Assembly: GCA_038245905.1 (NCBI GenBank)
Contig: JBBRRY010000005.1
Span: 64,001 to 128,000, forward strand
DNA from: Thermoanaerobaculia bacterium
GTDB taxonomy: Bacteria > Acidobacteriota > Thermoanaerobaculia > UBA5066
DNA length: 64,000 nucleotides
Direction of reading: 5' to 3'
A program made the position numbers and the translations under genes. Below, piece after piece: positions 53,123-54,939 of the stretch. Numbering within the stretch: position 1 is the stretch's first letter; every line of letters begins with the position of its first letter. Below the pieces are notes generated by a model. That model saw only the letters and a program-made list of their open reading frames with translations, did no database searches and was not told the DNA's origin.

Positions 53123-54939
53123 TGTCTCTCCTTCGAACTGCCTCGGCTCTCGCGCTCGTTCTAGCCGCTCTCCCAGCGCCTGCGGAGCCCATCCCGGCCT
53201 CGAACACGATCATCGCTCCGCGCCTTGCGGCCGATGCCGACCGGCTCGTCGCGGGAGCGCCTTTCCGCCTCGCCGTAGTCGCCGACGTCAAGGCGGGCTG
53301 GCACGTGAACAGTCACACGCCGAAGGAAGATTTTCTCATCCCGACCGAGATCCGGATAAAGCCCGCGGCGGGTCTCGTGTTCTCGCCCGTGAAGTATCCG
53401 AAGCACAAGGAGACGAAATTTTCGTTCTCCGATCAGCCTCTCGCCGTCTACGAGGGCCGGACCGTTTTCCTCGTGCCCGGCACCGTGGACGCGAAGGCCG
53501 CGCCGGGACCCCGCACGCTGACGGCCGTGATTTCGTACCAGCCCTGCAACGACAACCAGTGCCTTCCGCCCGCCGAGCTCACGGCGACGCTCACCCTCGA
53601 AGTCGCGAAGGCGGGGTCGCCCGCTACGCCCGCCAACTCCGACGTCTTCGCTCCCCCGGCGGCCGGTAGCGGAGCGGGAGCCGCGGGGAATATCGAGAAT
53701 GCCATGTCTGCGGGCGCCACGCCGCTCGGAGCCGAGGCCGCGCCCCTCGGGGCCGCGGCGATGCGCGAGAAATGGAACGTCCAGGGAGTCCCGACTCTTC
53801 TCTTCATCGGCCCCGACGGCAAGGAGATCGGCACGCGCGTCGTCGGTTTCGAGCCGCCCGAGACGTTCGCTCCGCGCTTCAGCGGCGGCGGCCCCGCCGC
53901 CGCCGAGGGCGGCCTCGCGGGCAAGTCGCTGCCGCTCCTCATCGGGCTCGTCTTCCTGTCGGGCCTCGCCCTCAACCTGACTCCCTGCGTCTACCCGCTC
54001 ATTCCGATCACGCTCGGGTTCTTCAGCCGGCAGACCGGAGGAAAGAAGGGTGGAACGTTCGGCCTCGCGCTCCTCTACGTCCTCGGCATGAGCGTCACGT
54101 ACTCGGCCCTCGGCGTCTTCGCCGCGCTCTCGGGCTCGCTCTTCGGCGCCTGGCTGCAGAAGCCGGTTGTTCTCCTCTCGATCGCGGCGATCGTCGTCGC
54201 GCTCGCGCTCTCGATGTTCGGGCTCTTCGAGATTCGCGTCCCGCACTTCATCACGGACCGCACCGGGTCGAAATCCGGCGCCGTCGGCGCCCTGACGATG
54301 GGACTCTTCGTGGGGTTCGTGGCCGCGCCCTGCATCGGCCCGTTCGTCCTCTCGCTCCTGACCTACGTCGCGGCGAAGGGCTCGGCGCCTCTCGGCTTCG
54401 GGCTCTTCTTCACGCTCGCGATGGGCCTCGGCCTTCCCTATCTCGTCCTCGGGACGGTGTCGGGTAGCCTGAAGGCGCTCCCGCGCTCGGGCGAGTGGAT
54501 GACGGCCGTGCGTCGCGTCTTTGGCTTCGCGCTCGTCGCGCTCGCGGTCTACTTCCTCCGCCCGCTCCTGCCGCCGCGCTTCTACGAAATTGGCATCGCG
54601 CTGCCGCTGCTCGCCGGGGGCGTGTGGTTCCTCTTCTTCGAGAAGAGCGGGGCCGGTGTGAGGGGATTCTACGCCGCGAAGGCCGCCGTCGCCGTGCTTC
54701 TCCTCGCCGCCGGCGGGCTCTTCGCGATGCCCGAGAAGGCCGGAGCGGCCCTCGCGTTCCAGCCCTATTCGGACGCGGCCGTGGCCGCGGCGCTGGCCGC
54801 CGGCAAGCCCGTGATGATCGACTTCTACGCGGACTGGTGCCTGCCCTGCAAGGAGCTCGACCACAAGACGTTCCGCGACGCGCGCGTGATCGCGGCGGCG
54901 AACGGCTGGGTGCTCCTGAAGGCTGACTTGACGAGATAG
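53122..54939 (+). CDS. dsbD: Thiol:disulfide interchange protein DsbD with split/permuted thioredoxin domain
   Basis: Signal peptide; alpha domain [12 protein letters not shown]; membrane domain LTPCVYP and APCIGP; gamma domain WCLPC at the very C-terminus. Confidence 0.9.
   Translation: [605 protein letters not shown]

What the first reader, a model, noticed from the sequence alone, without database searches (positions are those of the whole stretch)
53761..54939. DsbD with its thioredoxin (gamma) domain split and circularly permuted around the membrane domain
Seen: the protein stops mid-thioredoxin fold ([29 protein letters not shown]...VLLKADLTR*). The missing second half ([40 protein letters not shown], with the cis-Pro loop) is found in frame at 53761-53880, before TM1, between Ala/Gly linkers. 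rnc ends 26 nt past the stop, so there is no downstream remainder. Established: canonical order is alpha-beta(8TM)-gamma with both flanks periplasmic. Inference: the two halves reassemble in the periplasm, clamping gamma to both ends of the membrane domain. All six catalytic Cys are retained, which argues that it is functional.
Basis: partly seen in the sequence, partly recalled or inferred. Interest (0 to 1): 0.85.

Follow-up and report, generated by a model that had tools for sequence, protein, structure and literature searches.

The report
DsbD with thioredoxin domain split around membrane core
This bacterium's DsbD, the membrane protein that carries reducing power out of the cell, has its outer thioredoxin-like domain encoded in two pieces on either side of the eight-helix membrane part, an arrangement that is conserved and under selection in many species and seems not to have been described before.

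Summary
The dsbD ORF (window 53122-54939, 605 aa) reads signal peptide, alpha, gamma C-half (aa 210-256), 8-TM beta, gamma N-half (aa 545-605), stop.

- **Mapping:** the two pieces match adjacent, non-overlapping parts of solved E. coli DsbD-gamma, residues 21-70 and 78-124.
- **Not a misassembly:** 29 of 63 genomes of the family carry the same junction. That is the window's genome, 26 of 28 other genomes of its genus, and two further genera. Sister genera keep the canonical order at the same locus.
- **Selection:** the relocated 47 aa show no indels in 25 orthologues and dN/dS of about 0.3. The flanking linkers vary in length and sequence.
- **Catalytic residues:** all six Cys are invariant in 45 sequences, and the cis-Pro in the 25 split ones.
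- **Co-folding:** predictions favour it but do not prove it.
- **Wider spread:** a second large clade labelled Abditibacteriota/Armatimonadota has the same split. A small cluster is split after beta4 instead. Two proteins carry an in-place circular permutant. A single origin is rejected.

Seven literature searches found no description. I rate it a new variant of a known kind.

The parts
53122..54939 (+). dsbD ORF, 605 aa plus stop. Order: signal peptide, alpha, gamma C-half, beta, gamma N-half.
   Evidence: Orthologues at 76-89% identity over the whole length in 20 of 24 same-genus genomes; the other 4 are in two pieces or cut at contig ends.
53122..53187 (+). Signal peptide, about aa 1-22.
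   Evidence: Hydrophobic segment aa 1-19. AF2 helix 5-14 with low pLDDT. The cleavage site is inferred.
53212..53607 (+). Alpha domain, Ig-like, aa 31-162, with C142 (53545-53547) and C147 (53560-53562).
   Evidence: Pfam DsbD_N, E 7.7e-8. Foldseek hits to DsbD-alpha with TMt 0.61-0.69 among its ten best. VIA-align Z 10.3-11.2 to DsbD-alpha and ScsB-alpha. Both Cys invariant.
53614..53748 (+). Linker 1, aa 165-209, rich in Gly/Ala/Ser/Pro and hypervariable.
   Evidence: Length 35-45 aa among 25 orthologues, mean identity 0.49, dN/dS 0.42. pLDDT below 50.
53749..53889 (+). Gamma C-half, aa 210-256: alpha3 remnant, cis-Pro loop (P224 = 53791-53793), beta4, beta5 and a shortened alpha4.
   Evidence: Pfam Thioredoxin_2 positions 69-102 of 104. 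Aligns to E. coli gamma residues 78-124. Homologous to the C-terminal ~50 aa of canonical relatives. Fixed at 47 aa, dN/dS 0.31.
53890..53922 (+). Linker 2, aa 257-267, between the gamma C-half and TM1.
   Evidence: Length 9-13 aa, dN/dS 0.49. pLDDT below 50 at aa 257-266.
53923..54732 (+). Beta domain, aa 268-537, eight TM segments, with C289 (53986-53988, TM1) and C404 (54331-54333, TM4).
   Evidence: Pfam DsbD_TM, E 2.6e-49. Eight hydrophobic segments. AF2 helices. Sequence match to CcdA 5VKV. Both Cys invariant.
54754..54936 (+). Gamma N-half, aa 545-605: beta1, alpha1, beta2, the CLPC motif (C573 = 54838-54840, C576 = 54847-54849), alpha2 and beta3. The stop follows at 54937-54939.
   Evidence: Pfam Thioredoxin_7 positions 4-61 of 83. 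Aligns to E. coli gamma residues 21-70. dN/dS 0.16. 73 of 91 related split clusters end in 'LLKADLTR'.
54940..54965 (.). 26-nt spacer between the dsbD stop and the convergent rnc stop. It has no room for a gamma remainder.
   Evidence: rnc is confirmed by Pfam.
52196..53122 (+). Upstream gene for an exported thioredoxin-like (CGQC) plus TPR protein. Its TAA stop overlaps the dsbD ATG by one base. It is a possible partner or substrate.
   Evidence: Pfam Thioredoxin_2 and TPR matches. Found by tblastn directly upstream of dsbD in 13 of 14 loci checked, split and canonical alike. The partner role is inferred.

Best explanation
This is a functional DsbD (thiol:disulfide interchange protein). Its periplasmic thioredoxin-like gamma domain is circularly permuted around the membrane domain. 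The last ~47 residues of the fold (alpha3 remnant, cis-Pro loop, beta4, beta5, alpha4) have moved from the C-terminus into the alpha-beta linker, and the gene now stops right after beta3.

Both pieces lie in the periplasm. I infer that they fold together into one thioredoxin domain tied to TM1 and to TM8 by short linkers.

The electron path is taken from E. coli DsbD: cytoplasmic thioredoxin, then beta C289/C404, then gamma C573/C576, then alpha C142/C147, then periplasmic partners.

Shown here: the architecture, its conservation, its orthology to canonical dsbD, and purifying selection on both pieces. Inferred: co-folding within one molecule, catalytic activity, and the origin by duplication followed by complementary deletions.
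For: **Mapping.** The two pieces map to complementary parts of the thioredoxin profiles and of solved E. coli DsbD-gamma.

**Conservation.** The junction from gamma C-half into TM1 is contiguous in 29 of 63 family genomes: the window's own, 26 of 28 others of genus g1, plus G043 and G061. In the canonical genera, 29 genomes match the TM part only, and 27 of those have the gamma C-half about 1 kb downstream.

**Orthology.** 9 of 10 split or canonical loci of the family checked have the same upstream Trx-TPR gene, and 8 of 10 the convergent rnc downstream, so these are orthologues. Canonical relatives read '...[26 protein letters not shown]...LAR*'. Split ones end '...KADLTR*' and carry the homologous block upstream.

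**Selection.** dN/dS is 0.31 for the gamma C-half (0.27 for its 40-aa core), 0.16 for the gamma N-half, 0.25 for alpha, 0.15 for TM and 0.42-0.49 for the linkers. The segment is fixed at 47 aa, while the linkers vary between 35-45 and 9-13 aa. Six Cys are invariant in 45 sequences and GVPT is invariant in 25.

**Structure prediction.** In the full-length AF2 model, segment pLDDT by 10-residue block is 70/74/77/76 and beta4 spans 225-229. Without beta and the gamma N-half it is 57/65/73/53 and beta4 is fragmented. ESMFold2 on the two halves gives ipSAE 0.60, 0.60 and 0.57, against 0.00 for the best of 3 controls. The tool's verdict is 'weak support'. The runs agree in at least 92% of their contacts. 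Partner pLDDT is 70-73, and 37 when the gamma N-half is replaced by an unrelated protein.

**Joined form in nature.** P0333 and P0335 have the order alpha, beta, gammaC, gammaN, with the same break point.

**No backup gene.** This is the only full-length DsbD_TM gene in a genome that is 96% complete. The one other match is a 108-aa frame scoring exactly at the cut-off.
Against: - No coordinates or contacts could be read from the models. The ESMFold2 verdict is only 'weak support', and a pass for two halves of a thioredoxin fold may reflect memory of solved structures.
- AF2 pTM is 0.52.
- In genus g1 the N-terminal part of alpha3 has degenerated to Ala/Gly, and alpha4 is shortened.
- dN/dS of the gamma C-half is about twice that of the gamma N-half.
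- dS is partly saturated, so the ratios are rough.
- There are no expression or activity data. RNA-library contigs from run X18 lie on parts of the gene at 85-95% likeness, which does not show transcription of this organism's gene.
- Assembly within one molecule and between two molecules cannot be separated.
Confidence: 0.78

Rival explanations
1. The halves do reassemble, but between two DsbD molecules. The gamma C-half of one protomer pairs with the gamma N-half of another, which makes an obligate domain-swapped dimer.
For: Nothing here separates assembly within one molecule from assembly between two. The ESMFold2 test used separate chains. The linker from alpha to the gamma C-half is long and flexible, 35-45 aa.
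Against: The short, conserved-length linkers from the gamma C-half to TM1 (9-13 aa) and from TM8 to the gamma N-half favour a local partner. The single-chain AF2 model gives the segment its higher confidence within one chain. In-place permutants such as P0333 and P0335 are single-chain by construction.
Confidence: 0.12
2. The two gamma pieces are remnants without function. The protein works as a CcdA-like or alpha-beta electron carrier, and another thioredoxin-like protein does the job of gamma, for example the product of the upstream CGQC gene.
For: An exported thioredoxin-like gene sits directly upstream and is translationally coupled. CcdA-type systems with separate thioredoxins are known; this point is recalled, not tested here.
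Against: - The same upstream gene is present in canonical relatives that keep an intact gamma.
- Both pieces are under purifying selection, with invariant CxxC and cis-Pro and no indels in 25 orthologues.
- The arrangement persists in 94 of 119 related clusters at 90% identity. It also appears in 62 of 118 proteins of a second clade.
Confidence: 0.06
3. The arrangement is an assembly or binning artefact, or a recently broken gene, in this one metagenome-assembled genome.
For: The genome is a draft of 113 contigs.
Against: - 29 of 63 family genomes share the junction.
- In run X1, probably the source sample, a Logan contig covers 53538-54381 with 0 differences and another covers 54845-55100 across the stop.
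- In runs X2 and X6, from two other studies, contigs of relatives span alpha, the gamma C-half and TM1, with changes only in the linker.
Confidence: 0.01

Closest known systems
E. coli DsbD (DipZ), order alpha, beta, gamma
   Same: It has the same three modules and the same six Cys. The alpha domain is Ig-like (Z 10-11). The beta domain has eight TM segments. The gamma sequence matches solved gamma structures. The electron cascade and the eight-TM organisation are as described in passages of PMC3322552.
   Different: Gamma is not contiguous. Its last ~47 residues precede beta and its first ~60 follow beta, so gamma is tied to both TM1 and TM8 rather than to TM8 alone.
Canonical DsbD of sister genera in the same family (for example loci L041, L049, L047)
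   Same: They are orthologues at about 60% identity, and 6 of the 8 canonical family loci checked have both the same upstream and the same downstream gene. The block '...[35 protein letters not shown]...' is nearly the same.
   Different: In them the block follows 'KADLTR' at the C-terminus. Here it sits in the alpha-beta linker.
CcdA with a separate thioredoxin-like partner, and ScsB
   Same: They share the beta-type membrane core (CcdA 5VKV matches aa 274-477). ScsB has the alpha-beta-gamma organisation (PMC3322552, passages seen).
   Different: In those systems the thioredoxin domain is either a separate whole protein or a contiguous C-terminal domain. It is never split within the fold. The CcdA partner systems are recalled, not tested here.
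Engineered termini restraining of small membrane proteins with split GFP (PMC11205269, abstract seen)
   Same: Two halves of a soluble protein, fused to the N- and C-termini of a membrane domain, associate and restrain it.
   Different: That is a laboratory construct with an unrelated reporter. Here the restraining domain is the protein's own catalytic thioredoxin domain, and it arose naturally.
Fragment complementation of E. coli thioredoxin (fragments 1-73 and 74-108; recalled, no paper retrieved)
   Same: It shows that a thioredoxin fold cut in the region after beta3 can reassemble non-covalently.
   Different: That is an in vitro result with a cytoplasmic thioredoxin, and the cut is not at exactly the same residue.

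Membership tests
DsbD (thiol:disulfide interchange protein, alpha-beta-gamma) | N-terminal periplasmic Ig-like alpha domain with a Cys pair | tested here: met
   Pfam DsbD_N at aa 41-156, E 7.7e-8. Foldseek and VIA-align hits to DsbD-alpha, Z 10.3-10.9. C142 and C147 invariant in 45 sequences.
DsbD (thiol:disulfide interchange protein, alpha-beta-gamma) | Beta domain of the DsbD_TM family with eight TM segments and one Cys each in TM1 and TM4 | tested here: met
   Pfam DsbD_TM, E 2.6e-49. Eight hydrophobic segments. C289 and C404 invariant.
DsbD (thiol:disulfide interchange protein, alpha-beta-gamma) | Periplasmic thioredoxin-like gamma domain with a CxxC motif and a cis-Pro loop | tested here: met
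   All sequence elements are present, but on two separate segments. C573 and C576 are invariant. G222-V223-P224-T225 is invariant in the 25 split orthologues.
DsbD (thiol:disulfide interchange protein, alpha-beta-gamma) | Contiguous domain order alpha, beta, gamma | tested here: not met
   The order is alpha, gamma C-half, beta, gamma N-half. This is the respect in which it is a variant.
DsbD (thiol:disulfide interchange protein, alpha-beta-gamma) | Transfers electrons from cytoplasmic thioredoxin to periplasmic oxidoreductases | not testable with these tools
   Needs complementation and redox-state assays.
Circular permutant of a thioredoxin fold | The same set of secondary-structure elements in cyclically shifted order, with the original termini connected | tested here: met
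   Sequence mapping places E. coli gamma residues 78-124 before residues 21-70. The connection between the old termini is the whole beta domain. P0333 and P0335 have a short linker there instead.
Circular permutant of a thioredoxin fold | The two segments fold into one domain | tested here: inconclusive
   AF2 pLDDT of the segment is 70-77 with the gamma N-half present and 53-73 without it. ESMFold2 gives ipSAE 0.60 against 0.00, rated 'weak support'. No contacts were obtainable.

The most novel reading that the evidence does not exclude
A catalytic periplasmic thioredoxin domain is built in nature from two segments exported more than 300 residues apart, on either side of an eight-helix membrane domain. 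This amounts to a circular permutation with a whole membrane protein as the linker.

The arrangement has arisen or spread at least three times:
- in Thermoanaerobaculia;
- in a clade labelled Abditibacteriota/Armatimonadota;
- in the lone protein P0005.

A further cluster, P0029, is cut after beta4 instead, and two proteins (P0333, P0335) are in-place circular permutants nested in the second clade.

It would mean that gamma works while pinned to both TM1 and TM8, directly above the beta cysteines.
Probability: 0.72. Interest if true: 0.72.

Novelty: new variant of a known kind. Interest (0 to 1): 0.66.

Why it matters
- **Protein evolution.** This is a natural, selected example of a soluble fold circularly permuted around a polytopic membrane domain. 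Canonical orthologues, an in-place permutant and a second cut site are all available for comparison. That makes the duplication-and-deletion route to permutation testable on real sequences.
- **DsbD mechanism.** A gamma domain held by two short tethers limits how far it can move between the beta cysteines and alpha. This bears on how electrons pass through DsbD.
- **Folding.** The first-exported half must wait for the last-exported half.
- **Structure determination.** A doubly tethered gamma may make a full-length DsbD easier to solve, as engineered termini restraining does.
- **Annotation.** Public sources name these proteins plain DsbD or CcdA. Domain scans show only partial thioredoxin hits, so the architecture goes unnoticed.

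Tried and rejected
- **Structure searches.** Foldseek against PDB and VIA-align on the full-length model returned only alpha-domain matches. A split domain cannot be aligned in sequence order, so these searches say nothing about gamma.
- **Two-chain prediction.** Complex prediction gave 'weak support'. I cite it only together with its controls.
- **Traces of the rearrangement.** A direct-repeat search over 53400-55000 found only short GC-rich chance matches and no footprint of the event.
- **A false lead.** In the class-level sample, G084 matched query positions 25-131 and looked like a partial permutant. On inspection it is canonical, as are G197 and G087.
- **Literature.** Seven searches found no description of a split or permuted DsbD gamma: DsbD with 'circular permutation'; DsbD/CcdA/ScsB with 'domain architecture'; thioredoxin fold with 'circularly permuted'; thioredoxin fragment complementation; DsbD with Acidobacteria; DsbD with 'permuted'; and circular permutation with membrane protein and thioredoxin. 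The Bushweller 2020 review (PMC7485265) is not held. Subscription journals and supplementary files were not searchable.
- **Expression.** Contigs from RNA library X18 lie on parts of the gene at 85-95% likeness. That is no proof of transcription of this gene.
- **Earlier notes.** The earlier-findings search returned no note on a split gamma.
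Full report
**The gene.**
The ORF runs from 53122 to 54939 on the + strand and encodes 605 aa. The parts, in order:
- a signal-like hydrophobic start;
- a DsbD_N alpha domain (Pfam aa 41-156);
- a Gly/Ala-rich linker;
- a block at aa 216-251 that matches only the C-terminal third of thioredoxin profiles (Thioredoxin_2 positions 69-102 of 104);
- a second short linker;
- the DsbD_TM domain (aa 273-482, E 2.6e-49);
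- at the very end, aa 548-604, which match only the N-terminal two thirds of Thioredoxin_7 (positions 4-61 of 83).

The protein ends '...VLLKADLTR'. Only 26 nt separate its stop from the stop of the convergent RNase III gene.

Against solved E. coli DsbD-gamma chains, aa 555-604 align to chain residues 21-70 and aa 213-258 to residues 78-124. The two blocks are thus complementary halves of one domain, cut in the loop after beta3.

Hydropathy shows no membrane segment between alpha and TM1, followed by eight hydrophobic segments, so both halves lie on the periplasmic side.

**It is not an artefact.**
The window lies in a draft genome that is 96% complete.
- Of 24 other genomes of the same genus, 20 match residues from position 12 or earlier through 605 in one piece, at 76-89% identity. 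Two match in two pieces with a frame change. Two are cut by contig ends.
- I searched the family with the 131-aa junction, which runs from the gamma C-half through linker 2 into TM1-TM2. It is contiguous in 29 of 63 genomes: the window's own, 26 of 28 others of genus g1, and G043 (g11) and G061 (g17). One g1 genome is cut at a contig end and one shows no match.
- In the seven other genera, 29 genomes match the TM part only. In 27 of them the gamma C-half is found about 1 kb downstream, which is the canonical order.
- A sample of 151 genomes of the class showed the contiguous junction only in this family. One suspicious partial match, G084, proved canonical on inspection.
- In the run that holds 97% of the sampled words, probably the source sample, a Logan contig covers 53538-54381 with no differences and another covers 54845-55100 across the stop. 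Contigs of relatives from two other studies span alpha, the gamma C-half and TM1, with changes only in linker 1.
- Genomes G025 and G030 are flagged unpublished.

**Orthology and break point.**
- Of the 10 family loci checked besides the window's own, 9 have the same upstream thioredoxin-like (CGQC) plus TPR gene and 8 the same convergent rnc. Two loci of other families were also checked. The rearrangement therefore happened inside an orthologous gene.
- Canonical relatives at about 60% identity read '...[56 protein letters not shown]'. The split proteins stop at '...KADLTR*' ('TRS*' in G043).
- The split proteins carry '..[44 protein letters not shown]..' in the alpha-beta linker.
- The whole C-terminal ~50 aa moved as one block. 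Afterwards the start of alpha3 drifted to Ala/Gly and alpha4 was shortened.
- On a tree built without the trait's own columns, the 23 g1 rows form a clade with support 99. G043 and G061 branch nearby, with two canonical genera among them at weak support. One origin within the family is not excluded.

**Selection.**
Values are for 25 split orthologues.

| Region | dN/dS |
|---|---|
| gamma C-half | 0.31 |
| gamma N-half | 0.16 |
| TM domain | 0.15 |
| alpha | 0.25 |
| linkers | 0.42 and 0.49 |

- The gamma C-half is always 47 aa, while the linkers range over 35-45 and 9-13 aa.
- The 40-aa core gives 0.27. Eight canonical family members give 0.51 for the same core, at deeper and more saturated divergence. 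There is thus no sign of relaxed constraint after the move.
- C142, C147, C289, C404, C573 and C576 are invariant in 45 aligned sequences. G222-V223-P224-T225, with the cis-Pro, is invariant in the 25 split ones.
- The gene is the only full-length DsbD_TM member in the genome. A second match is a 108-aa frame scoring exactly at the cut-off.

**Do the halves fold together?**
- *Full-length AF2 model* (45-row alignment): mean pLDDT 78.2 and pTM 0.52. The linkers score below 50. The gamma C-half scores 70/74/77/76 per ten residues, with helix 211-217, strand 225-229, bridges at 236 and 240-241, and helix 246-254.
- *Truncated AF2 model* (natural fragment aa 1-265, with no beta and no gamma N-half, and the same 25 rows covering the segment): 57/65/73/53, and beta4 breaks up.
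- *ESMFold2 on the two halves as separate chains*:
  - ipSAE was 0.60, 0.60 and 0.57, against 0.00 for the best of three controls.
  - The tool calls this 'weak support'. That mark was reached by 58 of 80 solved complexes and 2 of 110 mismatched pairs. Scores of 0.60 or less came from only 7 of those 80 solved complexes, and both mismatches that passed also scored 0.60 or less.
  - The runs agree in at least 92% of their contacts.
  - Partner pLDDT is 70-73, and it falls to 37 when the gamma N-half is replaced.
  - Two halves of a thioredoxin fold may pass from likeness to solved structures.
- I could not read contacts from any model.
- Structure searches saw only the alpha domain.

Co-folding is therefore well motivated but inferred.

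**Wider picture.**

*This clade.* Near this protein, 91 of 119 clusters at 90% identity have the order alpha, gammaC, beta, gammaN. Twenty-five are canonical. Sources label them Thermoanaerobaculia or Acidobacteriota MAGs and name them plain DsbD or CcdA.

*Representative scan.* Of the 150 best hits of the junction among 1.84 billion representatives, 9 have a gamma piece before beta.

*A second clade.* A search from one of these, P0087, examined 118 proteins:

| Order | Proteins |
|---|---|
| alpha, gammaC, beta, gammaN | 54 |
| gammaC, beta, gammaN (no alpha) | 6 |
| alpha, gammaC, beta | 2 |
| alpha, beta, gammaC, gammaN | 2 |
| canonical | 54 |

The named members of this clade are Abditibacteriaceae, Abditibacteriota or Armatimonadota MAGs. 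The break again falls right after beta3 ('...VDLTRAGS*').

*In-place permutants.* The two proteins with the order alpha, beta, gammaC, gammaN (P0333, P0335) are ordinary in-place circular permutants with the same cut. This is the best natural evidence that this permuted thioredoxin fold is viable.

*Other variants.*
- The P0029 cluster (4 members from different sources) is cut after beta4 instead. Only beta5 and alpha4 lie upstream.
- P0006 and P0145 carry the whole gamma before beta. P0006 keeps a TM8-like helix plus one more helix in front of it. It is a single record on a 3.3-kb contig and should be treated with caution.

*Origins.* On a beta-domain tree of 49 proteins the 16 split rows fall in at least three places, and the AU test rejects a single clade (p 6.9e-07). 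The group was defined by architecture but was tested after I had seen an earlier tree. The in-place permutants nest inside the second split clade.

**Mechanism proposed.**
- By homology with E. coli DsbD (cascade as in PMC3322552, passages seen), electrons pass from cytoplasmic thioredoxin to C289/C404 in beta, to C573/C576 in gamma, to C142/C147 in alpha, and on to periplasmic partners. One candidate partner is the co-transcribed CGQC-TPR protein.
- The special feature is that gamma is assembled from a piece exported with alpha and a 60-aa tail exported after TM8. It is therefore tied to both ends of beta.
- As for origin, the variety of forms fits a duplication of gamma or of beta-gamma, followed by complementary deletions. 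No DNA trace of the event remains here. This part is inference.
- Possible benefits are a shorter C-terminal tail to export and a gamma held over the beta cysteines. Both are speculation.

**Comparison and novelty.**
The protein meets the sequence-level defining features of DsbD except the contiguous alpha, beta, gamma order. Its closest relatives are canonical DsbDs of sister genera.

Seven full-text searches found no description of a split or permuted DsbD gamma. Subscription journals, one review that is not held and supplementary files could not be checked.

The nearest concept in print that I saw is engineered termini restraining of membrane proteins with split GFP (PMC11205269, abstract only). 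Thioredoxin fragment complementation is recalled, not retrieved.

That is a different thing, and I did not test it.

I rate this a new variant of a known kind, of real interest to people who study protein evolution and the Dsb system.

Noticed in passing
window 52196-53122 (+): A gene for an exported thioredoxin-like protein (CGQC motif) with TPR repeats. Its TAA stop overlaps the dsbD start by one base. tblastn finds it directly upstream of dsbD in 13 of 14 loci checked, split and canonical alike. It is a candidate DsbD partner or substrate.
   Followed up: partly
window 52011-52086 (-), 56948-57036 (-), 57082-57157 (-): tRNA-Phe(GAA), tRNA-Leu(TAA) and tRNA-Cys(GCA) genes flank the locus.
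   Followed up: no
L023 (G003:C6) and L024 (G018:C30): In two same-genus genomes the dsbD match falls into two pieces with a change of frame, near residues 535-545 and near residue 498. Public gene calls there are truncated proteins without the gamma N-half (P0181, P0180). This could be a sequencing error or a real frameshift.
   Followed up: no
P0029, P0272, P0273, P0271 (proteins): A small cluster of DsbD proteins is split at a different point. Only beta5 and alpha4 ('FREIRRVVGFRPPEQFLAELS') lie before beta, and the protein ends after beta4 ('GIPTLIFLEPSQ'). One member is labelled Candidatus Nitrosotenuis, which looks like a binning oddity.
   Followed up: partly
P0333, P0335: DsbD proteins with the order alpha, beta, gammaC, gammaN. 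This is a contiguous, in-place circular permutant of the gamma domain with the same cut after beta3. They nest in the clade labelled Abditibacteriota.
   Followed up: partly
P0006, P0145: DsbD-like proteins with the whole gamma domain before beta. In P0006 a TM8-like helix and one extra hydrophobic helix precede gamma, as if part of a beta-gamma duplication had survived. P0006 is a single record on a 3.3-kb contig.
   Followed up: partly
window 55704-56287 (-): Two small overlapping ORFs of 83 and 111 aa next to rnc. From the ORF list alone they look like a toxin-antitoxin pair, a PIN-like fragment plus a small DNA-binding antitoxin. They were not scanned against any library.
   Followed up: no
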